From positions 1 through 54,605 of the forward strand of contig JAJFIO010000054.1 of the NCBI GenBank assembly GCA_021774915.1: 54,605 nucleotides of DNA. The letters run 5' to 3'. Shown here one piece after another: positions 22,024 to 31,537 of the stretch. The translations under genes were made by a program, and so were the position numbers. The notes below the pieces were generated by a model. That model was not told the origin of the DNA. It made no database searches and saw nothing but the letters and a program-made list of their open reading frames with translations. Position 1 is the first letter of the stretch, and every line of letters starts with the position of its first letter. This stretch comes from Alphaproteobacteria bacterium. Its GTDB lineage: Bacteria > Pseudomonadota > Alphaproteobacteria > SMXP01.

Positions 22024-22127
22024 GATAAAAGGGAGGGGATGGCATAGCCACCCCCTCATTTTTCGTCGTTTAGACTTATTACGACTGTTAGTCCATACCG
22101 ATCAGGATCTGCTACGTTCCCGTGGAC
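22024..22127 (-). ncRNA. tracrRNA (predicted), divergent from cas9
   Basis: Anti-repeat at 22118-22078, complementary to the minus-sense CRISPR repeat: 30 Watson-Crick pairs, 2 G:U pairs, 1 mismatch and a 5-nt bulge. It is followed by an AAUAAGUC linker, an 11-bp GC hairpin and a U tract. The ends are estimated. Confidence 0.7.
22027..22057 (-). terminator. intrinsic terminator of the predicted tracrRNA
   Basis: The minus strand reads GAGGGGGUGGC-UAU-GCCAUCCCCUC followed by CCUUUUAU. The single non-canonical pair is G:U on the minus strand but A:C on the plus strand. Confidence 0.65.
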
Positions 22128-22133
22128 GTTGCA

Positions 22134-22162
22134 ATGGTGATTGACTCTAGCGATCATGTCAA
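22134..22162 (-). promoter_or_regulatory. candidate sigma70-type promoter for tracrRNA
   Basis: The minus strand has TTGACA (22162-22157), a 17-nt spacer and CACCAT (22139-22134). The -10 is weak. Confidence 0.35.
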
Positions 22163-22200
22163 CAACCATGACAGGAAATCGACAGTTGAGAGGGTTTCTT

Positions 22201-25200
22201 ATGGTCGAACCTGCGCGGAAAATGCGATATCGCCTCGGAATTGACGTGGGTGTTGCCTCGCTGGGCATTGCTATCGTGGAACTGGGCAGCCCAACAAGTT
22301 CAACGCAGGGCAACTTTCCAACTCACATAGTTGGTGGATCGGTGCGAACCTGGCCTATTCCCGAGGGAGCCGCCGAACGCCGCCAAAAGCGGGCAATGCG
22401 ACGTAATATTGAACGTCGAGAACGACGTTTGGACAGGCTTTCTGACCTGCTGGCTGAGAATGGACTGGGCTATCCGAGAAAAGGTGTTCCAAAGGAGCTC
22501 TTGGACAAATCCCCCATAAAATTTCGTGCCAAGGGGTCTCGTGAAAAAATCGGATTGGATGAATTCTCCCGAGCCCTGCTTCACATGGCGCGCCATAGAG
22601 GGAGTAGCGCTTTTCGAGAGTCAGATATCAAGGACGAAAAAGAGGCGCGGCAGACAGCCGAAGCTATTCGAAGTCTGCGCAAGGAAATGAAAAGTAAGAA
22701 TTTTGCGACCTACGGCCAGTTCTTGCGTTGGCGTGAAAAAAAGAACCTTCCCATACGTATCAATCAAACAAAAGCCGCTGGTAACAAGGATGAATATGCC
22801 TTCTATCCCAGCCGTGAAATACTTCGTGAAGAATTTGAAGTAATCTGGAATGAGCAGGCGAAATATTATCCCGCCGAATTGACCGTCACATTGAAGGATA
22901 AAATTAAAAATGAACTCTTCTTTCAGCGAGCGATCACCTCTCCTCCTCCCGCAGATTGTCCGTATTTTTCTGATGAGCAAAGAATTGCACGAGCTTCCCG
23001 CTTATTTCAGATCAGGCGTATTTATGAGGAAGTAAATCATTTGCGCTTTTACAAGAAAAATGGAGAGGTGATTGACTACACACTGGAGCAACGCGATCAG
23101 ATTGTAGCTCGGCTCATGTCAGGGGAAACCCTTAGCTTTGCCGAGATCAAAAAGACCATTGGCCTGGACAGAAGGGATAAAGTCAGCCTTGAGAGCGCAA
23201 AAACACGCAAAGGCATTGATGGATATCCGTTTGATGCTGCTTTGGGGCAGGAAGAGGTTCTGGGAAGTATCTGGCTCAACGCCAATGAAGCCAAACAAGA
23301 TGAAATCCTACGAATTCTGGCTACAGAGCACGATGACAAGCTCGCTATTGAGAAACTTTCACGACTTTTGGGCGACGATCAGGATGCGGCCAAACGCACT
23401 CTTCAGGTTCCACTACCCAAGGGCTGGGGTCATATGGGTTTGTCAGCAACGGTCAAGATTTTGAAAGAACTAAAACGTGAAGTCATTCCCGCGCGAGTGG
23501 CCGAGGATAGAGCTGGTCTCTTTCATACATCAACACCTGACGGTGTCATCTATGACCGGCTCCCATATTATGGTGTAGTTTTGCGTGGACACACTGTTAA
23601 GCCCATTTGGGTCTCAAGTTATCGAAGAGATACCGACCACCCACCGAAAACAAATTCGTTAGAGCAAGAATCTGGACGCATTCCAAATCCTGTTGTTCAC
23701 CTCGCTCTCAACCAAATTCGGCAGACAGTGAACGCTGTTATTGAGAAGTATGGCCTTCCCGAAGGTATCCACATCGAGCTTGCGCGCGACCTCAACAAGA
23801 GTGCAGAAGCGCGGGATGAAATTGACAAACAGAACGAGATAAACCGAAAAAAGAACGACACGGTTCGCTCAATTCTTGAAGGACGCAATGTAACGGTCAA
23901 TCATATTAATATTCAAAAATACAAATTGTGGCAGGAGCAAAGTGGAACTTGTGTCTACACAGGAGAACCAATTAACCTGGATCGCCTCTACTCTGATGAC
24001 GTTCATATTGACCATATTCTTCCTCGTTCAAAAACCTATTTGGACTCTATGGCCAACAAAGTTGTCTGCACACGAGGGGCTAATGCCGATAAAGGCAATC
24101 GCACACCCTATGAAGCTTTTTCTCATGATGCTGATACCTGGGCCTCGATTATGCGGCGTGTTAAAAAACTTCACGACAACAAGAAATGGCGTTTCAATGC
24201 AGATGCCATGAAAAATTTCGAGGACGATAGTGAGAGTTTTCGTGCTCGTTATGGGACTGACAATTCCTACATTGCGAGGGTTGCCAGGCAATATTTGAGC
24301 TGCCTGTATGGTGAACCCACTAAGGTTATTGCTGTCTCAAGTCATATTGTTGGACTTTTGCGTGGCAAATGGGGATTACTCAAGATTCTGGGCGAAAAGA
24401 GTACAGGCAAGAAGGCGCGTGATGATCACCGCCATCACTTTATCGATGCCCTGGTCACCGCCTGTGCGACTCGCGGCATGGTTCAGAAAATTCAAACGGA
24501 AGCGGCGCGGTGTGAACGTGAAAATCTGGAAACTTTCGTACAAAAAATCCAACCGCCCTTTGGTGAGTCAAAAGAGTTTTTCAACTCAGCCAGAGAGGCG
24601 ACATTGGAACGTGTCACTCTTTCACGCAAACCTGATCACTCAAATGAGGGGCAACTGCACGAAGATATCTTGCGGGGGATCGTGGACGGGCCGGATAAGT
24701 CTGGAAAATACACCTGCCGAATACAGAAAAAATTAAGCGACTGCGAAACACTTGCCAAATTCGATAAATCGACATTCAAGGCAACCTTGCCCGAACTTCC
24801 CGAAATACGCACAGCAAAGGCGACCCTGGAAGAACTGAAAAACTCAATACGGAATCATATCCACACTGCGAAACAAGAGCTTGAGACAGAACATGCCGCC
24901 GATGTTGCGTCCGGGAAGAAAGGCAAGGCGATATCTGATCACGCGATTTTTTCAAGAGCTGTTAACTTGCATCAGATCGCTGGTGGCAGATCCACCTTCA
25001 CGCTCTATGAAAAAAGCAAACTGGTGAATATACGCCGGAGCAAGAATGGTAATCGTGCGACAGGGGGCTATATCAGCGGAAGAAACCATCGCATGGATTT
25101 CTACCTGGATGGTAAACAGAAAGTGAAATGGCAATGCATTTCCATGTTAGAGGCCAACGATCCCCATTTCGTGCCAGACGCTAAAAGAAAAGGTTGCGAG

Positions 25201-25479
25201 TGGTTGTGGTCAGCCCACAAGGAGGATGTTCTATTGATGGACAATCCTGATAATGCAAATGAACGGATCCGTGTCATTGTCGCAAAATTCAAGAATGGCT
25301 ATCTTGGAGTAATTCCTGAAAGTGATGCCCGGGACTCAAAAGAAAGGACGCTTTGGGAAAAAGGACTCCAATTCTACTACAAGGCCGGCGCGCAACGCAT
25401 TGTTCTTGATGCGCTGGGAGATATAGTCTGGTACTTCCCTGCCCTTCCACGGTCCGGCAAATTAGAGGTAGCTACATGA
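22201..25479 (+). CDS. cas9: Cas9, type II-C
   Basis: RuvC-I motif MRYRLGIDVGVASLGIAIVEL, Arg-rich bridge helix RRQKRAMRRNIERRERRLDRL, HNH motif DIDHILPRSKTYLDSMANKVVC...ANADKGNRTPYEAF, and RuvC-III motif DDHRHHFIDALV. It is about 1090 aa. The start is taken at ATG 22201, with GAGAGGG 6 nt upstream; ATG 22222 is also possible. The track ORF start at 22141 overlaps the tracrRNA promoter. Confidence 0.93.
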   Translation: MVEPARKMRYRLGIDVGVASLGIAIVELGSPTSSTQGNFPTHIVGGSVRTWPIPEGAAERRQKRAMRRNIERRERRLDRLSDLLAENGLGYPRKGVPKELLDKSPIKFRAKGSREKIGLDEFSRALLHMARHRGSSAFRESDIKDEKEARQTAEAIRSLRKEMKSKNFATYGQFLRWREKKNLPIRINQTKAAGNKDEYAFYPSREILREEFEVIWNEQAKYYPAELTVTLKDKIKNELFFQRAITSPPPADCPYFSDEQRIARASRLFQIRRIYEEVNHLRFYKKNGEVIDYTLEQRDQIVARLMSGETLSFAEIKKTIGLDRRDKVSLESAKTRKGIDGYPFDAALGQEEVLGSIWLNANEAKQDEILRILATEHDDKLAIEKLSRLLGDDQDAAKRTLQVPLPKGWGHMGLSATVKILKELKREVIPARVAEDRAGLFHTSTPDGVIYDRLPYYGVVLRGHTVKPIWVSSYRRDTDHPPKTNSLEQESGRIPNPVVHLALNQIRQTVNAVIEKYGLPEGIHIELARDLNKSAEARDEIDKQNEINRKKNDTVRSILEGRNVTVNHINIQKYKLWQEQSGTCVYTGEPINLDRLYSDDVHIDHILPRSKTYLDSMANKVVCTRGANADKGNRTPYEAFSHDADTWASIMRRVKKLHDNKKWRFNADAMKNFEDDSESFRARYGTDNSYIARVARQYLSCLYGEPTKVIAVSSHIVGLLRGKWGLLKILGEKSTGKKARDDHRHHFIDALVTACATRGMVQKIQTEAARCERENLETFVQKIQPPFGESKEFFNSAREATLERVTLSRKPDHSNEGQLHEDILRGIVDGPDKSGKYTCRIQKKLSDCETLAKFDKSTFKATLPELPEIRTAKATLEELKNSIRNHIHTAKQELETEHAADVASGKKGKAISDHAIFSRAVNLHQIAGGRSTFTLYEKSKLVNIRRSKNGNRATGGYISGRNHRMDFYLDGKQKVKWQCISMLEANDPHFVPDAKRKGCEWLWSAHKEDVLLMDNPDNANERIRVIVAKFKNGYLGVIPESDARDSKERTLWEKGLQFYYKAGAQRIVLDALGDIVWYFPALPRSGKLEVAT

Positions 25480-26408
25480 GTTGGCAAATTGTTGACGTTG
25501 TAGAAGATGGGCGCTATCTGCATACAGACCGTGAGTGGATGGTTGTTAAGGAAAATCAGATTGAAATCGGTAGAATACCTTTGACCGATATTCAATCAAT
25601 CCTGGTGCATGCGGGTTATGCCACCTATTCACATGAACTTTTACTGCGTCTGTCTGAATATGATATACCTCTTGTCATCTGTGACCACCGCCATGAACCT
25701 ATTTCCATTCTCCTATCACTGAGCGGTCACCACAAACAGGCCGGTCGCGTAAGGGCGCAATCAGAAAGCACAATACCTGTGAGAAAGCGCGTCTGGCGCG
25801 ACCTTGTAAAGAAGAAGGTTCTTGAACAGGCAAACAGCCTTAAACCATTTGATCGCATCGGACATGACGGCCTTCGAAAATTGGCATCAAAGGTAAAATC
25901 TGGCGACCCGGACAATATTGAGGCTCGTGCAGCCCGATACTATTGGCCACGCCTCTTTGATAAAACCTTTCGAAGAGATCGCAGCCAGCCGGGTCTCAAT
26001 GCACATTTGAATTACGGCTATACTATTCTGCGCTCTGCTGTGGCTCGGGCGATTACCGCCGCTGGCCTTGTACCATCACTGGGTGTTGGGCACGTTAACG
26101 CCCGCAACAATTTCTGTCTTGCCGATGATCTCGTGGAACCATTCCGGCCTTTGGTGGATCGGTTGGTATGGAAAAACCGGAGCAAATGGGCGGACGAATT
26201 GACGCCGGAAGCTCGTAAGGAACTCGCGGGCATGATGTCTAGGTCAATCCGGACGGAAGATGGAGAAACAGACCTCTTTCGTACCATGACGATGGTCGCC
26301 ATCAGTCTGGCAAACCTGTTCGAAGGCACCGTGAGCAAGCTTTATATGCCCGGAAAAGTAGCATTTGTGGACTCACCCCGGTTCCCCGGATTTGAGATCG
26401 GATCGTAA
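25476..26408 (+). CDS. cas1: Cas1 integrase
   Basis: LNYGYTILRSAVARAITAAGLVPSLGVGHVNARNNFCLADDLVEPFRPLVD. ATGA overlap with the cas9 stop. Confidence 0.92.
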   Translation: MSWQIVDVVEDGRYLHTDREWMVVKENQIEIGRIPLTDIQSILVHAGYATYSHELLLRLSEYDIPLVICDHRHEPISILLSLSGHHKQAGRVRAQSESTIPVRKRVWRDLVKKKVLEQANSLKPFDRIGHDGLRKLASKVKSGDPDNIEARAARYYWPRLFDKTFRRDRSQPGLNAHLNYGYTILRSAVARAITAAGLVPSLGVGHVNARNNFCLADDLVEPFRPLVDRLVWKNRSKWADELTPEARKELAGMMSRSIRTEDGETDLFRTMTMVAISLANLFEGTVSKLYMPGKVAFVDSPRFPGFEIGS

Positions 26409-26440
26409 GCAAATGTTCAACTCAAACAGAGAGCCTGACC

Positions 26441-26767
26441 GTGCTTTCATCGTACAAGATTATGTGGCTGCTCGTTGTTTTTGACCTGCCTGTCGGCTCA
26501 AAGAGTGAACGACGCAGGGCAACGGGCTTTCGAAATAGGCTGCTCGACGAGGGTTTTTTTATGAAACAATTCTCGGTCTACCTGAGATCATGCCCCAACC
26601 GGCCAAGCGCAGAGGCCCTAGCGGACCGAATTGGCAAAAACGCGCCGCCAGAAGGAGATGTTTCAATTTTATTTTTCACCGACAAACAATATGGCCTCAC
26701 CCGGAATTACGCGGGCAAAGCCATTAAAGAAACCGAAGAAAAACCACCTCAGCTTCTATTATTCTAG
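26441..26767 (+). CDS. cas2: Cas2
   Basis: MWLLVVFDLPVGSKSERRRATGFRNRLLDEGFFMKQFSVYLR ferredoxin-like fold pattern. The start is GTG 26441 or ATG 26462. Confidence 0.88.
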   Translation: MLSSYKIMWLLVVFDLPVGSKSERRRATGFRNRLLDEGFFMKQFSVYLRSCPNRPSAEALADRIGKNAPPEGDVSILFFTDKQYGLTRNYAGKAIKETEEKPPQLLLF

Positions 26768-26839
26768 CGCGTTTATGTTGTTTTTAAAGCACCCATATTC
26801 AAGTAACATGTTGTTTTAATTCATCTTAAGAAGATCGGT

Positions 26840-28130
26840 AGTGTAGCAGATGCTGATCGGTATGGCAGCCGTAACAATGGGCGCTACACGCCGCCCGTCG
26901 ACCCCAGTGTAGCAGATGCTGATCGGTATGGCAGCCGTAACCAGAGCGAAGCAATATGTTTCAGCCACATTAGTGTAGCAGATGCTGATCGGTATGGCAG
27001 CCGTAACGTGAACGGCGCAACGTAATCTAGTTTCTTCAGTGTAGCAGATGCTGATCGGTATGGCAGCCGTAACTGGTGGACTTCCAGATTGTGGGCGATC
27101 TCTAGTGTAGCAGATGCTGATCGGTATGGCAGCCGTAACAGTAATGTCAGCCTCAATTGTCGCCTGATTAGTGTAGCAGATGCTGATCGGTATGGCAGCC
27201 GTAACAGCATAGACGGCATAATAGAATCAATAACGTAGTGTAGCAGATGCTGATCGGTATGGCAGCCGTAACCTAATTTTTGTATGGGATTGCTCAATAT
27301 GAAGTGTAGCAGATGCTGATCGGTATGGCAGCCGTAACAACCAACCATTGGGGTGTAAGAGTTCTGGAAGTGTAGCAGATGCTGATCGGTATGGCAGCCG
27401 TAACCGTCATCACTCGCGGCGCGTCCAATCCGTCAGTGTAGCAGATGCTGATCGGTATGGCAGCCGTAACAACCAACCATTGGGGTGTAAGAGTTCTGGA
27501 AGTGTAGCAGATGCTGATCGGTATGGCAGCCGTAACTCTCATCCCACTGCTCGCCGGACACCATCCAGTGTAGCAGATGCTGATCGGTATGGCAGCCGTA
27601 ACTGGTACGCCGATGTGGTGTTCGAGACTTCGAGTGTAGCAGATGCTGATCGGTATGGCAGCCGTAACTAAGATCGGCCCTGTAAAGATCGGCCCCGCAG
27701 TGTAGCAGATGCTGATCGGTATGGCAGCCGTAACTTAGTGTTTCATCCATCACCAGCTCCCTCCAGTGTAGCAGATGCTGATCGGTATGGCAGCCGTAAC
27801 AGCGTGAATGTTCATTTGCCGTGGCTGATAAGTGTAGCAGATGCTGATCGGTATGGCAGCCGTAACTCCATCTGTTATGTCAATTACCATCCGACAAGTG
27901 TAGCAGATGCTGATCGGTATGGCAGCCGTAACTGTGATATCAGCCTCAATCGTCGCCTGATTAGTGTAGCAGATGCTGATCGGTATGGCAGCCGTAACTG
28001 GTGTTCTTTGTTCTTCCGTTAAATAGTGAGTGTAGCAGATGCTGATCGGTATGGCAGCCGTAACGGTTTGGGTATTTTATAAGAATACAAATCAAGTGTA
28101 GCAGATGCTGATCGGTATGGCAGATCCACA
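26840..28130 (-). CRISPR. CRISPR array: 20 repeats of 36 bp (19 identical plus 1 degenerate at 28095-28130) and 19 spacers (18 of 30 bp, one of 31 bp)
   Basis: The plus-strand repeat is AGTGTAGCAGATGCTGATCGGTATGGCAGCCGTAAC. Repeats start at 26840, 26906, 26972, 27038, 27104, 27170, 27237, and then every 66 bp to 28095. The crRNA sense is inferred as minus (GTTACGGCTGCCATACCGATCAGCATCTGCTACACT). This rests on tracrRNA complementarity and on resemblance to the Neisseria II-C repeat. A 72-bp AT-rich stretch (26768-26839) separates the array from cas2. Confidence 0.97.
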
Positions 28131-28132
28131 AG

Positions 28133-28158
28133 CCCCCCGTGTTTAGTAACACGGGGGG
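28133..28158. terminator. 11-bp GC-rich hairpin at the cas-distal end of the array
   Basis: CCCCCCGTGTT-TAGT-AACACGGGGGG, followed by TTCT on the plus strand. Only a short T run follows on either strand. Confidence 0.5.
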
Positions 28159-28400
28159 TTCTAAATACATGGGACCGGATCGAGCGTGCCGAATTTGATA
28201 TTTTTGGAGGATGGGGGCTTGCCGCTGGAGCAGCTCAACGGATCCACCCCTTGCCCCGCAAAGAACCTCCCAGACAAAAAGCAGGAATTTTTTAGCCTTT
28301 CATGGCTGCCCATAGGTCATATGGGCTTATTTTTCCCGTTCTCACGCAGTGCACAATCAGACCCAAAAATATCGATAGAAAAAACGAATCAGTAAGGGCT

Positions 28401-28481
28401 CCGTACGTATGGAAATGTCATTTTTTGAATTATTTACCTACGAGCGAATAGTGCCTTATTTGAGATTCCCTACGTAGGGAA
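28401..28481. promoter_or_regulatory. two CCnTACGTAnGG sites upstream of rep; the second is part of a perfect 16-bp palindrome
   Basis: CCGTACGTATGG at 28401-28412 and CCCTACGTAGGG at 28468-28479. The second sits within TTCCCTACGTAGGGAA (28466-28481). A partial CCTACG lies between them. Confidence 0.35.
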
Positions 28482-28559
28482 GATATTTTTTGTTGCGAAA
28501 CGAGAAATATGGTTATTTATAGATGGCTCCATTTGAAATCCAGCAATAAGGAGCCAAGA

Positions 28560-29663
28560 ATGAGTGAGACATTTTCCGGATTTGACAAGACAGAAACCTA
28601 TCCGCTTCTACTTTCAGGATTCGATACCCTCGAAGTCAGCTATTTCGTCAATGTCCCGTCAAGTGACCTTGATCTTGAGGATCTGGAATACCGCAAGGAA
28701 AGCCTCAAAGCGAATTACGGTGACGGGTTTGACAAGGTTCGTCTGGGAACAGAGACCTTCGCCCTCAAACCTTACGGCCGGGATAAATACAAGTTCGTCC
28801 TGTCGAACAAGTCCTTTGAGGTTCTGCTCGCTGAACACATGCGGCCAAGCTGCCGCGTAAAATTCTTCAGCGAGGCTCTCTGGCATGAGGGCCTTCAGGG
28901 GCTGATGGATCGTTTTGAACTCTGGTGCAAATCATTATCACTTGTTGCTTTCCGGCCTGAGACCGTGGGCCGTGCCGACTGGGCCTTCGACTACCATGTC
29001 CCGCGCGTCGATTTTAGCTGGGACGACTTTGTCTCCCGCGTACGCAAGGACAATGCCTATCGCGAGTCAGGCGTGGTTCAGACGTTTCAGTTCGGCAAGT
29101 CTGACATCGTGGTGCGGGTCTATGACAAGGTTGCTGAGATCGAAGAAAAAAGCGGAAAAGTGTGGTTCTATGATCTGTGGGGCCGCAAGAGCAGCGTCTG
29201 GCGGATCGAGTTCCAACTTCGGCGGGACGCCCTTAAGAGTCACGGCATCGGATCACTTGAGAGCCTGCTCGACTTGCAGAACGATACTCTGTTTCACCTT
29301 GCGCACACTCACACCACCCTTCGCAGACCCAATGGCGACAGCAATCGCTCTCGCTGGCCGCTGCACCCATTGTGGGACGCCCTGCAGAAACACATTGAGG
29401 ATCTGCCACGAAGCGGCCTGGTGCGGGCCTTCGATGAGAAGAAGGCCTTGGACTATCGCCTCTTCAAGCAATCGCAGGGCATTTACGGACATCTGAAGGG
29501 GCTTATGGCGCTGGAATGCATCAGGACAGGGAAACCTGCATCAAGCACCCTGAGGGAAGTCCTGGAACGCCTCAGACCGCATCTTGAAGATCATCACCAT
29601 TCCATCCCATGGGAGGCGGATGTTGAAAAACGGGTCAGGGCATACGAGGTAGGCCAGTGGTAA
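28560..29663 (+). CDS. replication initiation factor (Rep_trans / RstA-like rolling-circle initiator or relaxase)
   Basis: VQTFQFGKSDIVVRVYDKVAEIEEKSG...SSVWRIEFQLRRDAL fits the recalled Rep_trans pattern (T.Y.G.R.S...R.YDK..E....W.R.E.E.R). The start is ATG 28560, with AAGGAG 7 nt upstream. Confidence 0.6.
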   Translation: MSETFSGFDKTETYPLLLSGFDTLEVSYFVNVPSSDLDLEDLEYRKESLKANYGDGFDKVRLGTETFALKPYGRDKYKFVLSNKSFEVLLAEHMRPSCRVKFFSEALWHEGLQGLMDRFELWCKSLSLVAFRPETVGRADWAFDYHVPRVDFSWDDFVSRVRKDNAYRESGVVQTFQFGKSDIVVRVYDKVAEIEEKSGKVWFYDLWGRKSSVWRIEFQLRRDALKSHGIGSLESLLDLQNDTLFHLAHTHTTLRRPNGDSNRSRWPLHPLWDALQKHIEDLPRSGLVRAFDEKKALDYRLFKQSQGIYGHLKGLMALECIRTGKPASSTLREVLERLRPHLEDHHHSIPWEADVEKRVRAYEVGQW

Positions 29664-29848
29664 GGCATATCGATGACCCGGCAGGCCCAAAGAGCAAACC
29701 GCTTAAAGCCGACAATGACAACGGGTTGGATGTTGAGGAGGTCTGGCCTGAAGTCATCTTCGTGACAGAAAACGAACTCCGGCTTCTCGAAACGAGATTT
29801 ACGGATATAATCTCAGAAATTGTAGCGGCCAATGACAATAATCCCTGA
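29657..29848 (+). CDS. hypothetical small acidic protein (63 aa)
   Basis: GTG start overlapping the rep stop; the 3' end overlaps the upstream extension of the recombinase ORF. By my count it has 14 Asp/Glu against 6 Lys/Arg. No recognisable motif. Confidence 0.4.
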   Translation: MVRHIDDPAGPKSKPLKADNDNGLDVEEVWPEVIFVTENELRLLETRFTDIISEIVAANDNNP

Positions 29849-29873
29849 TAAGGGATCCTGGAAAAGGCAAGAT

Positions 29874-31537
<1,664 letters not shown>

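What the first reader, a model, noticed from the sequence alone, without database searches (positions are those of the whole stretch)
26840..28130. Array read antisense to the cas operon, with an extended -10-like box in every repeat
In minus sense each repeat ends in CATCTGCTACACT. The last 9 nt, TGCTACACT, fit the extended -10 pattern TGnTAnnnT. They differ by one base from the TGCTACAAT that ends the Neisseria meningitidis type II-C repeat. In N. meningitidis and in Campylobacter jejuni each repeat has been shown to start its own crRNA transcript inside the downstream spacer, without RNase III processing. The minus orientation is independently supported by the tracrRNA complementarity and by the GTT... 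start of the repeat. If the same mechanism applies here, crRNAs would carry about 22-24 nt of guide. The AT-rich cas2-proximal 72 bp (26768-26839) would then not be a transcriptional leader.
Basis: partly seen in the sequence, partly recalled or inferred. Interest (0 to 1): 0.65.

Follow-up and report, generated by a model that had tools for sequence, protein, structure and literature searches.

The report
Type II-C CRISPR array, promoter-like repeats
This is an ordinary type II-C CRISPR-Cas9 locus from a marine alphaproteobacterium; its array is read antisense to the cas genes, and each repeat ends in a promoter-like box, as already shown for Neisseria and Campylobacter.

Summary
Positions 26840-28130 hold 20 repeats of 36 nt (19 identical, one degenerate) and 19 spacers. 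Read on the minus strand, every repeat ends in CATCTGCTACACT.

The minus-strand reading is well supported:
- A tracrRNA gene with its own promoter and terminator lies on the minus strand upstream of cas9.
- Repeat and anti-repeat show compensatory changes in relatives.
- The degenerate repeat sits at the cas-distal end.
- Relatives carry a bidirectional terminator where a plus-strand leader promoter would have to be.

The motif TGnTAnnnT is low in information. Outside the array it occurs at chance frequency, and "in every repeat" only says the repeats are copies. The real support is comparative. TG, T-12, A-11 and T-7 are invariant in nine repeat variants whose Cas9 proteins are only 47-100% identical. 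TAnnnT lies within 0-5 nt of the 3' end in 33 of 35 distinct type II-C repeats.

Promoter activity is inferred, not shown. The mechanism is textbook for type II-C (N. meningitidis, C. jejuni, and the alphaproteobacterial DfCas9 locus). This is a new member of a known kind, and interest is low.

The parts
26840..28130 (-). CRISPR array: 20 repeats of 36 nt (GTTACGGCTGCCATACCGATCAGCATCTGCTACACT in crRNA sense) and 19 spacers. Spacer 27339-27368 is duplicated at 27471-27500.
26840..26848 (-). Extended -10-like box TGCTACACT, the last 9 nt of the repeat in crRNA sense. This is the leader-proximal copy. The other 19 copies start at 26906, 26972, 27038, 27104, 27170, 27237, 27303, 27369, 27435, 27501, 27567, 27633, 27699, 27765, 27831, 27897, 27963, 28029 and 28095.
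   Evidence: A -35-like CTGCCA lies 17 bp upstream within the repeat but is not conserved in relatives.
28095..28130 (-). Degenerate 'extra' repeat: the first in the direction of transcription and the oldest. Its 6 mismatches all fall in crRNA-sense positions 1-7, which pair with the tracrRNA. The -10-like box is intact.
   Evidence: Relatives show the same pattern. It matches the pattern reported for type II-C arrays in PMC12080349.
28134..28165 (.). GC-rich hairpin (11 bp stem, about -24 kcal/mol) 3 nt from the extra repeat. In minus sense it occupies the position of the guide of an extraneous crRNA. In plus sense it is followed by TTCT and could stop read-through from the cas operon.
   Evidence: z = -2.5 minus sense, -3.5 plus sense. 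It did not meet the terminator scan's T-run criterion.
26768..26839 (.). 72-bp AT-rich gap between cas2 and the array. It is the probable acquisition leader. No sigma-70-like plus-strand promoter and no significant hairpin are present. Only a decayed remnant (AACATGTTGT) remains of the bidirectional terminator seen in relatives.
22026..22128 (-). tracrRNA gene, about 103 nt: anti-repeat 22118->22083, nexus hairpin, terminator stem 22057->22033 followed by a T-tract.
   Evidence: (duplex -47 kcal/mol)
22133..22162 (-). tracrRNA promoter: -35 TTGACA at 22162->22157; -10 CACCAT/ACCATT at 22139->22133.
   Evidence: The TTGAC core of the -35 is invariant in all 9 aligned loci (6 read TTGACA); relatives have -10 nATAAT/ACAAT.
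22201..25479 (+). cas9 (1092 aa from the ATG at 22201; the ORF list starts at a TTG at 22141, which lies inside the tracrRNA promoter).
25476..26408 (+). cas1 (type II, NMENI-type)
26441..26767 (+). cas2

Best explanation
This is a complete type II-C CRISPR-Cas9 locus (tracrRNA, cas9, cas1, cas2, array) in the chromosome of an alphaproteobacterium. The array is expressed from the minus strand, antisense to the cas operon.

Inferred mechanism:
1. The last 9 nt of every repeat (TGCTACACT) act as an extended -10 promoter. RNA polymerase starts about 6-8 nt into the next spacer.
2. This gives a nested set of primary transcripts whose 5' ends need no processing and carry about 23-25 nt of guide.
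3. The tracrRNA pairs with repeat positions 1-4 and 11-33. RNase III can then cut the duplex and remove the last ~12 nt of the repeat, which include the promoter box.
4. New spacers enter at the cas2-proximal end. The 72-bp gap there is therefore an acquisition leader, not a transcriptional one.
5. The oldest repeat, at the cas-distal end, keeps its promoter box but has lost its tracrRNA-pairing 5' end. Together with the adjacent hairpin, this would suppress a useless extraneous crRNA.

Shown by sequence analysis: the locus anatomy, the strand of the tracrRNA and hence of the crRNAs, and the conservation pattern. Inferred: promoter activity, start sites, RNase III cleavage and the end at which spacers are acquired.
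For: Locus type: Cas9 TIGR01865 (E = 1e-158), cas1_NMENI and cas2 are present. No csn2 or cas4 was seen between or beside the cas genes.

Orientation:
- There is a single anti-repeat at 22083-22118. Its minus-strand transcript has a TTGACA-N17/18 promoter, a nexus hairpin and a terminator.
- All of these are conserved in 9-10 loci, with compensatory pairs in the terminator.
- The repeat:tracrRNA duplex is -47 kcal/mol, with a bulge of the kind usual in type II repeat:anti-repeat duplexes (the comparison is from general knowledge).
- Compensatory repeat/anti-repeat changes occur in L006 (A13G), L010 (A15T) and Varunaivibrio L083 (A13T).

Box conservation:
- In nine repeat variants of this clade (Cas9 47-100% identical), positions 8, 10, 13, 15, 18, 22, 23, 24, 27 and 34 vary.
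- TG (positions 28-29), T31, A32 and T36 never vary. The only change inside the hexamer is at position 34 (TACACT to TACTCT).
- Across 35 distinct type II-C repeats from about 9 families, TAnnnT lies 0-5 nt from the 3' end in 33. The middle three bases vary: TACACT, TACGCT, TATAAT, TATATT, TAAGCT, TAAACT.
- These last 12 nt are removed from mature crRNA in the characterised systems: DfCas9 crRNAs keep 24 nt of the repeat (PMC7708072). Cas9 binding therefore does not explain their conservation.

No alternative promoter:
- No sigma-70-like site was found on the plus strand in the leader or on the minus strand upstream of the array.
- The distal flanks of relatives are unrelated to each other by inspection; they were not aligned.
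- Relatives have a bidirectional terminator between cas2 and the first repeat.

Precedent:
- C. jejuni dRNA-seq shows a -10 box in the 3' part of each repeat (PMC3656092).
- N. meningitidis uses the same mechanism (PMC5965381; PMC12477760).
- In alphaproteobacterial Defluviimonas DfCas9, the synthetic crRNA's repeat part ends in TGCTAGGAT. A fragment with four repeats is transcribed antisense to the cas genes in E. coli and yields 24-25-nt guides (PMC7708072).
Against: - There are no RNA data for this locus or any close relative.
- The -10 hexamer TACACT matches the consensus at only 4 of 6 positions. The -35-like CTGCCA is not conserved, so the promoter would depend on the TG extension.
- The motif is common by chance.
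- The tracrRNA bases that pair with the terminal dodecamer are also invariant. The conservation could therefore reflect another sequence-specific reader, such as Cas1-Cas2 at the leader-repeat junction or RNase III.
- Some related families lack the TG (AGCTACACT, AGTTATAAT) or the final T (TAAACC, TACAAC).
- The orientation could not be confirmed independently from a PAM, because no protospacer was found.
Confidence: 0.7

Rival explanations
1. The array is read on the minus strand, but mainly as one long pre-crRNA. This would start at a promoter upstream of the extra repeat (somewhere in 28131-28600) or arise from read-through. It would then be matured by tracrRNA/RNase III plus 5' trimming, as in type II-A. 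On this view the box at the repeat end is too weak to matter in this host.
For: TACACT matches the consensus at only 4 of 6 positions and lacks a conserved -35. The motif occurs at chance frequency elsewhere in the window. The locus's demonstrable promoter, P_tracr, has a strong -35 TTGACA, which suggests the host polymerase prefers -35-dependent promoters.
Against: - No sigma-70-like site was found on the minus strand in 28131-28600.
- A -24 kcal/mol hairpin sits 3 nt upstream of the first repeat.
- The distal flanks of relatives share no conserved element by inspection, so a dedicated upstream promoter is not part of the conserved module.
- The nearest ORFs of at least 60 aa on that side are on the plus strand.
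- The DfCas9 fragment, cloned without its native distal flank, was still transcribed antisense to the cas genes (PMC7708072).
Confidence: 0.17
2. The invariant terminal dodecamer ATCTGCTACACT is conserved mainly as a recognition element for spacer integration (Cas1-Cas2 at the leader-repeat junction) or for RNase III/tracrRNA duplex formation. Its resemblance to a -10 box would then be incidental.
For: - The box end of the repeat is the end that abuts the acquisition leader.
- The pairing partner in the tracrRNA (ACGUAGCAGAU) is equally invariant.
- The motif has low information content.
Against: - A duplex only needs complementarity. Elsewhere in the repeat, changes are tolerated and compensated.
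- Across distant type II-C families the conserved positions are T, A and the final T, while the middle three bases vary. That is the signature of a -10 hexamer, not of a fixed protein-binding word.
- The last three nt (ACT) do not pair with the tracrRNA yet stay conserved.
- The two roles are not mutually exclusive.
Confidence: 0.1
3. The classical arrangement: a plus-strand pre-crRNA starting in the cas2-proximal leader or continuing from the cas operon.
For: The window's leader is AT-rich and, unlike in relatives, has no terminator. Plus-strand read-through RNA from the cas operon probably exists. A hairpin followed by TTCT lies just past the array.
Against: - A plus-sense crRNA would need a plus-strand tracrRNA. 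The only anti-repeat would then run directly into cas9, 83 nt downstream, with no terminator.
- On the minus strand the same anti-repeat has a conserved promoter, nexus hairpin and terminator.
- The plus-sense repeat starts AGTG rather than the GTT usual for type II repeats.
- No plus-strand promoter-like site is in the leader.
- Relatives have a terminator there.
- The degenerate repeat is at the far end, as in N. meningitidis and C. jejuni (PMC3737331; PMC12080349).
Confidence: 0.03

Closest known systems
Neisseria meningitidis type II-C CRISPR-Cas9 (Zhang et al. 2013, as described in PMC5965381 and PMC12477760)
   Same: - cas9-cas1-cas2 only, with 36-nt repeats and 30-nt spacers.
- The repeat starts GTT and ends in an extended -10 box (TGCTACAAT there, TGCTACACT here).
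- The array is read antisense to the cas operon.
- Spacers are acquired at the transcriptionally downstream, leader-adjacent end.
   Different: - The -10 hexamer is one base further from consensus (TACACT).
- The middle of the repeat is unrelated.
- The host is a marine alphaproteobacterium.
- Promoter activity, RNase III independence and the end of acquisition are untested here.
Campylobacter jejuni NCTC11168 type II-C (Dugar et al. 2013, PMC3656092)
   Same: A -10 box in the 3' part of each repeat, with a start site in each spacer. The first (oldest) repeat is mutated and a hairpin sits just upstream of it (PMC12080349).
   Different: - The C. jejuni repeat is AT-rich with a different sequence.
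- C. jejuni has a validated Rho-independent terminator/hairpin upstream of the array. Here the hairpin lacks a clear U-tract.
Defluviimonas sp. 20V17 DfCas9 type II-C locus (Fedorova et al. 2020, PMC7708072)
   Same: - The host is an alphaproteobacterium and the tracrRNA lies upstream of the cas genes.
- The repeat part of the synthetic crRNA ends in TGCTAGGAT.
- The array is transcribed antisense to the cas genes.
- crRNAs carry 24-25 nt of guide plus 24 nt of repeat.
   Different: - The repeat body is different.
- Expression was shown only in E. coli.
- The authors did not map primary 5' ends.
- Its Cas9 was not compared with the window's here.
Streptococcus pyogenes type II-A
   Same: tracrRNA:repeat duplex, Cas9 effector, and a divergent tracrRNA gene upstream of cas9.
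   Different: In type II-A one leader promoter makes a single pre-crRNA in the same direction as the cas genes, new spacers enter at the transcriptionally first repeat, and csn2 is present. None of this applies here.

Membership tests
Type II-C CRISPR-Cas | cas9, cas1 and cas2 only, without csn2 or cas4 | tested here: met
   NCBIfam hits: Cas9 TIGR01865 (530 bits), cas1_NMENI (262 bits), cas2 (66 bits). The three genes are contiguous at 22201-26767, with no other ORF between them or before the array.
Type II-C CRISPR-Cas | tracrRNA with an anti-repeat complementary to the array repeat | tested here: met
   Anti-repeat at 22118->22083. The duplex is -47 kcal/mol. Promoter and terminator are conserved in 9-10 loci, and compensatory changes are seen.
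Type II-C CRISPR-Cas | Compact Cas9 (about 1000-1100 aa) related to known type II-C Cas9 proteins | tested here: met
   The protein is 1092 aa. Relatives are annotated Cas9 in Varunaivibrio, Parvibaculum and Rhodobacteraceae at 47-73% identity.
Repeat-embedded-promoter crRNA biogenesis (N. meningitidis / C. jejuni type) | Array transcribed antisense to the cas operon | tested here: met
   Inferred from the strand of the tracrRNA and from the terminators between cas2 and the array in relatives. No RNA data are available.
Repeat-embedded-promoter crRNA biogenesis (N. meningitidis / C. jejuni type) | A -10 or extended -10 element at the 3' end of every repeat | tested here: met
   TGCTACACT is present in 20 of 20 repeats. 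TG, T-12, A-11 and T-7 are invariant in 9 clade variants. TAnnnT lies at the 3' end in 33 of 35 type II-C repeats.
Repeat-embedded-promoter crRNA biogenesis (N. meningitidis / C. jejuni type) | Primary 5'-triphosphate crRNA ends inside each spacer | not testable with these tools
   This needs TEX/dRNA-seq or primer extension.
Repeat-embedded-promoter crRNA biogenesis (N. meningitidis / C. jejuni type) | Interference independent of RNase III processing | not testable with these tools
   This needs an rnc mutant.
Repeat-embedded-promoter crRNA biogenesis (N. meningitidis / C. jejuni type) | Degenerate oldest repeat at the transcriptionally upstream end, with new spacers added at the downstream, cas-proximal end | tested here: met
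   The degenerate repeat is at 28095-28130, with mismatches confined to crRNA-sense positions 1-7. The same holds in L005, L009, L012 and L083. The end at which spacers are acquired is inferred from this.
Type II-A-like leader-driven array | Promoter in the cas-proximal leader, with array and cas genes co-directional | tested here: not met
   No plus-strand promoter-like site is in 26768-26839. The tracrRNA strand requires minus-sense crRNA. Relatives have a terminator in this gap.

The most novel reading that the evidence does not exclude
In this alphaproteobacterial clade the invariant repeat end ATCTGCTACACT may be a dual-use element. It would serve as the -10 promoter for each crRNA and, in its leader-adjacent copy, as the integrase's landmark. 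Its degenerate copy inside the tracrRNA gene (TGCTACGTT, 22110-22118, plus strand) would act as a promoter pointing at cas9, face to face with the tracrRNA promoter. Expression of crRNA, tracrRNA and cas9 would then be coupled through repeat-derived promoter boxes and mutually exclusive polymerase binding. The window has also lost the leader terminator that relatives keep, so its cas operon could read through antisense to every crRNA.
Probability: 0.12. Interest if true: 0.45.

Novelty: new member of a known kind. Interest (0 to 1): 0.2.

Why it matters
The finding adds an uncultured marine alphaproteobacterial lineage, and its cultured relative Varunaivibrio sulfuroxidans, to the type II-C systems whose repeats look self-transcribing. 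It also fixes the correct strand, tracrRNA and crRNA design for anyone who wants to use this Cas9. It does not change how type II-C crRNA biogenesis is understood. The one modestly useful point is comparative. Even where Cas9 identity falls to 47% within this clade, exactly the sigma-70 contact positions of the box stay fixed while neighbouring positions drift. The TAnnnT core is also kept in families whose Cas9 is only about 30% identical. This is sequence-level support that the mechanism is general in type II-C.

Tried and rejected
- **Protospacer/PAM search for an independent check of orientation.** The whole array searched by blastn against 50,697 phage records gave only chance hits (E >= 1). 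Four scans of IMG/VR with spacer cores gave nothing or one hit with 9-10 mismatches, which I rejected as a protospacer. No spacer matches the window itself or any locus fetched by then.
- **Rfam.** No tracrRNA family match at gathering thresholds; only the tRNA was found.
- **Genome-contig scan with Cas9.** It returned only distant relatives at 27-31% identity, so relatives were taken from the metagenome scan and from look-ups by protein.
- **The -35-like CTGCCA inside the repeat.** Rejected as a functional element because it changes in 5 of 9 clade variants.
- **Terminal inverted repeats as the reason for conservation.** In N. meningitidis, GTTGTAGC...GCTACAAT is nearly palindromic. By inspection, the two ends here (GTTACGGC / AGTGTAGC) match at only about 3 of 8 positions, so I dropped the idea.
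- **The leader as a terminator in the window itself.** Folding is not significant on either strand, unlike in relatives.
- **Papers not held.** Zhang et al. 2013 and the Mir et al. 2018 review are not in the library. Facts about N. meningitidis are cited through papers that are held.
- **Host taxonomy.** I did not run a dedicated homology search. The assignment to Alphaproteobacteria rests on a ChvG hit (that ChvG marks Alphaproteobacteria is from general knowledge) and on the named Cas9 relatives.
Full report
**1. What is in the sequence**

Positions 26840-28130 are a CRISPR array. It has 20 repeats of 36 nt and 19 spacers (18 of 30 nt, one of 31 nt). Nineteen repeats are identical. The last one, at 28095-28130, has six mismatches.

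On the minus strand the repeat reads GTTACGGCTGCCATACCGATCAGCATCTGCTACACT. All 20 copies, including the degenerate one, end in CATCTGCTACACT and match TGnTAnnnT.

Directly upstream on the plus strand lie three cas genes:
- cas9, 22201-25479. The real start is the ATG at 22201. The gene as called in the protein collection gives 1092 aa, and the N-terminus aligns with relatives from there.
- cas1, 25476-26408.
- cas2, 26441-26767.

NCBIfam identifies them as Cas9 (TIGR01865), type II Cas1 (cas1_NMENI) and Cas2. There is no csn2 or cas4, so this is a type II-C locus.

The rest of the window is ordinary chromosome: DNA polymerase I, a ChvG-type histidine kinase, PTS enzyme I and PabB. The named Cas9 relatives are Varunaivibrio (Rhodospirillales), Parvibaculum and Rhodobacteraceae at 47-63% identity. 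The host is therefore most likely an alphaproteobacterium.

**2. Is the motif more than chance?**

Taken alone, hardly. TGnTAnnnT occurs 83 times in the window against 62 +/- 8 expected. The 63 occurrences outside the array are exactly at chance level. A 36-nt repeat has roughly a 3% chance of carrying the pattern somewhere on either strand. The pattern being "in every repeat" only reflects that the repeats are copies.

A stricter composite is rarer. It requires TG, TAnnnT and at least 8 of 12 matches, counting a -35-like CTGCCA 17 bp upstream inside the repeat. It occurs once per ~10.6 kb of strand outside the array, 20 times on the array's minus strand and never on its plus strand. However, that -35-like hexamer changes in five of nine related repeat variants, so I do not count it as an element.

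**3. Orientation**

The only other repeat-like sequence in the window is at 22083-22118, just upstream of cas9. Read on the minus strand, it is an anti-repeat embedded in a compact gene:
- a -35 TTGACA at 22162->22157, with a -10 placed 17-18 bp downstream;
- the anti-repeat AACGTAGCAGATCCTGATCGGTATGGACTAAC;
- a nexus-like hairpin, GTCGT...ACGAC;
- an A-rich linker;
- an intrinsic terminator, stem 22057->22033 plus a T-tract.

I fetched 79 related loci from metagenomes and the Varunaivibrio, Parvibaculum and Rhodobacteraceae loci. In ten loci of the same clade the whole tracrRNA gene is conserved. The TTGAC core of the -35 is invariant in the nine loci whose promoter region was aligned, and the terminator stem shows compensatory substitutions.

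The repeat:tracrRNA duplex is predicted at -47 kcal/mol and has an internal bulge of the kind usual in type II duplexes (the comparison is from general knowledge).

Where the repeat changes in relatives, the anti-repeat changes with it: A13G in L006, A15T in L010 and A13T in Varunaivibrio.

A plus-strand tracrRNA from the same spot would run into cas9 after 83 nt with no terminator.

**4. Further anatomy that fits a minus-strand, N. meningitidis/C. jejuni-type array**

- *Degenerate repeat.* It is at the cas-distal end. Its six mismatches all fall in crRNA-sense positions 1-7, the part that pairs with the tracrRNA, while the box is intact. L005, L009, L012 and Varunaivibrio show the same pattern. 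Feussner et al. 2025 report this pattern for over 350 type II-C arrays. They explain it by acquisition at the transcriptionally last repeat and by the need of the first repeat to keep its promoter (PMC12080349).
- *Distal hairpin.* A GC-rich hairpin at 28134-28165 (about -24 kcal/mol; z = -2.5 in minus sense, -3.5 in plus sense) lies 3 nt from that repeat. This is the position where the same paper describes hairpins that sequester the guide of an extraneous crRNA.
- *Terminator in relatives.* In nine relatives the gap between cas2 and the first repeat is filled by a strong hairpin of the form A-run/stem/T-run, ending 10-14 nt before the repeat. Folded examples are L012 at -30.6 kcal/mol (z = -7.1) and L008 at -37 kcal/mol, with similar structures in L004, L086 and L087; the hairpins in L003, L005, L010 and L083 were seen by inspection only. 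Such a bidirectional terminator stops the cas operon before the array and stops minus-strand array transcripts after the last repeat. It leaves no room for a plus-strand leader promoter.
- *No alternative promoter.* The consensus scan finds no sigma-70-like site on the plus strand in 26768-26839 or on the minus strand upstream of the array. The distal flanks of the relatives look unrelated to each other, though I did not align them. A dedicated upstream promoter is therefore not part of the conserved module.

**5. Evidence that the box is a functional element**

Nine distinct repeat variants of this clade, from loci whose Cas9 is 47-100% identical to the window's, differ at positions 8, 10, 13, 15, 18, 22, 23, 24, 27 and 34. 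TG (positions 28-29), T31, A32 and T36 never change. The one substitution inside the hexamer is at position 34, giving TACTCT.

Among 35 distinct type II-C repeats from about nine sequence families (Cas9 as low as ~30% identical), TAnnnT lies 0-5 nt from the crRNA-sense 3' end in 33. The middle bases vary: TACACT, TACGCT, TATAAT, TATATT, TAAGCT, TAAACT. The opposite strand shows no such positional peak.

T-12, A-11 and T-7 are fixed while the middle bases are free. That is the pattern expected of a sigma-70 -10 hexamer (established knowledge).

These last ~12 nt are cut off mature crRNAs in the characterised systems: 24 nt of repeat is retained in DfCas9 crRNAs (PMC7708072). Cas9 binding therefore cannot explain the conservation.

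**6. What remains inferred**

Promoter activity is not shown for this locus or any close relative.
- TACACT matches the consensus at only 4 of 6 positions.
- The TG is missing in some related families (AGCTACACT, AGTTATAAT), and two families lack the final T.
- The tracrRNA bases pairing with positions 25-33 are as invariant as the repeat end.
- That end of the repeat also abuts the acquisition leader. Recognition by Cas1-Cas2 or a requirement of RNase III could contribute to the conservation.
- I could not confirm the orientation independently through a PAM, because no protospacer was found in 50,697 phage genomes or in IMG/VR.

**7. Comparison with what is known**

Transcription of each crRNA from a -10 box in the 3' part of the upstream repeat was shown by dRNA-seq in C. 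jejuni (PMC3656092). It was also shown in N. meningitidis (Zhang et al. 2013, as summarised in PMC5965381). In N. meningitidis transcription initiates at the 6th nt of each spacer (PMC12477760).

The N. meningitidis repeat ends in TGCTACAAT (repeat string found in PMC12477760), one base from the window's TGCTACACT.

The remark that "the terminal nine nucleotides resemble an extended -10" has already been made for C. cellulolyticum (PMC7038990). Recent work treats repeat promoters, and acquisition at the last repeat, as general type II-C features (PMC12080349).

The closest studied system by host is probably Defluviimonas DfCas9, also alphaproteobacterial (PMC7708072):
- the repeat part of its synthetic crRNA ends in TGCTAGGAT;
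- a cloned fragment with four repeats is transcribed antisense to the cas genes in E. coli;
- its crRNAs carry 24-25 nt of guide.

**8. Verdict**

I put about 0.7 on repeat-embedded promoters being the main source of crRNAs. The rest goes mostly to a long minus-strand precursor (0.17) or to an incidental resemblance (0.1). Plus-strand reading is essentially excluded (0.03).

This is a new member of a known kind, and interest is low (0.2). A cultured relative, Varunaivibrio sulfuroxidans, has the same repeat end and would allow a direct TEX-RNA-seq test.

**9. Side observations**

- *Overlapping promoters.* The tracrRNA promoter and a candidate cas9 promoter (TTGACT 22141-22146, 17 bp, AACCAT 22164-22169) overlap completely. 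Their -35 elements form a near-palindrome: GTTGAC-N12-GTCAAC in most relatives, GTTGAC-N12-GTCAAT in the window. It is largely conserved across relatives.
- *Box in the tracrRNA gene.* The plus-strand partner of the anti-repeat keeps its own TGnTAnnnT box (TGCTACGTT, 22110-22118), pointing at cas9. It is kept in all nine other loci aligned (TGCTACGGT in L008), in L083 and in L085, and L087 has TGCTACAAT; only L088 has lost it. The kept bases include three that do not pair with the repeat.
- *Lost leader terminator.* The window has lost the leader terminator that relatives keep. Cas operon read-through antisense to the array is therefore possible.

Noticed in passing
window 22133-22169: The tracrRNA promoter (minus strand: -35 TTGACA 22162->22157) and a candidate cas9 promoter (plus strand: TTGACT 22141-22146, N17, AACCAT 22164-22169; cas9 ATG at 22201) overlap completely. 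Their -35 elements form a near-palindrome, GTTGAC-N12-GTCAAC in most relatives (GTCAAT in the window), largely conserved across the 9 aligned loci. This suggests mutually exclusive polymerase binding or a shared operator.
   Followed up: partly
window 22110-22118 (+): The sense partner of the tracrRNA anti-repeat keeps an extended -10-like box, TGCTACGTT, pointing toward cas9. It is conserved in all nine other loci aligned (TGCTACGGT in L008), in L083 and in L085, including three nt (GTT) that do not pair with the repeat. L087 has TGCTACAAT, and L088 has lost the final T (TAAATC). It is a possible repeat-derived cas9 promoter, face to face with the tracrRNA promoter.
   Followed up: partly
window 26768-26839; relatives L003, L004, L005, L008, L010, L012, L083, L086, L087: Nine relatives carry a strong bidirectional terminator hairpin (A-run/stem/T-run) between cas2 and the first repeat. 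The window retains only a decayed remnant (AACATGTTGT core) with no significant fold. Cas operon transcription may therefore read through the array antisense to the crRNAs.
   Followed up: partly
window 28134-28165: A GC-rich 11-bp hairpin (about -24 kcal/mol) lies 3 nt beyond the degenerate repeat. It fits the 'hairpin in the extraneous-crRNA guide' described for type II-C arrays in 2025. On the plus strand (followed by TTCT) it might end read-through from the cas operon.
   Followed up: partly
window 27339-27368 and 27471-27500; 27140-27169 and 27933-27962: One spacer is present twice, exactly. Two other spacers differ at only four positions (12, 24, 27 and 30 in crRNA sense), all multiples of three. 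This suggests they target third-codon-position variants of one protein-coding protospacer.
   Followed up: partly
window 29832-31537: A large serine recombinase gene (564 aa; CcrB/XisF-like hits below cut-off) ends next to, and overlaps, a tRNA-Arg(CCG) gene on the opposite strand (31461-31537). This may mark the boundary of an integrated element just beyond the CRISPR locus.
   Followed up: no
L011 7001-11452: This locus has a window-clade cas9 and tracrRNA but no cas1, cas2 or cognate array. About 680 nt after cas9 lies an array of a different type II-C repeat family (that of L052) in the opposite orientation. It looks like a second, convergent type II-C locus or a recombined hybrid.
   Followed up: no
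window 26691-26724 (-): A terminator-like hairpin (13 pairs, followed by ATTGTTTGTC) lies on the minus strand inside the cas2 coding region. It could end array transcripts that run past the leader. It may equally be a chance match.
   Followed up: no
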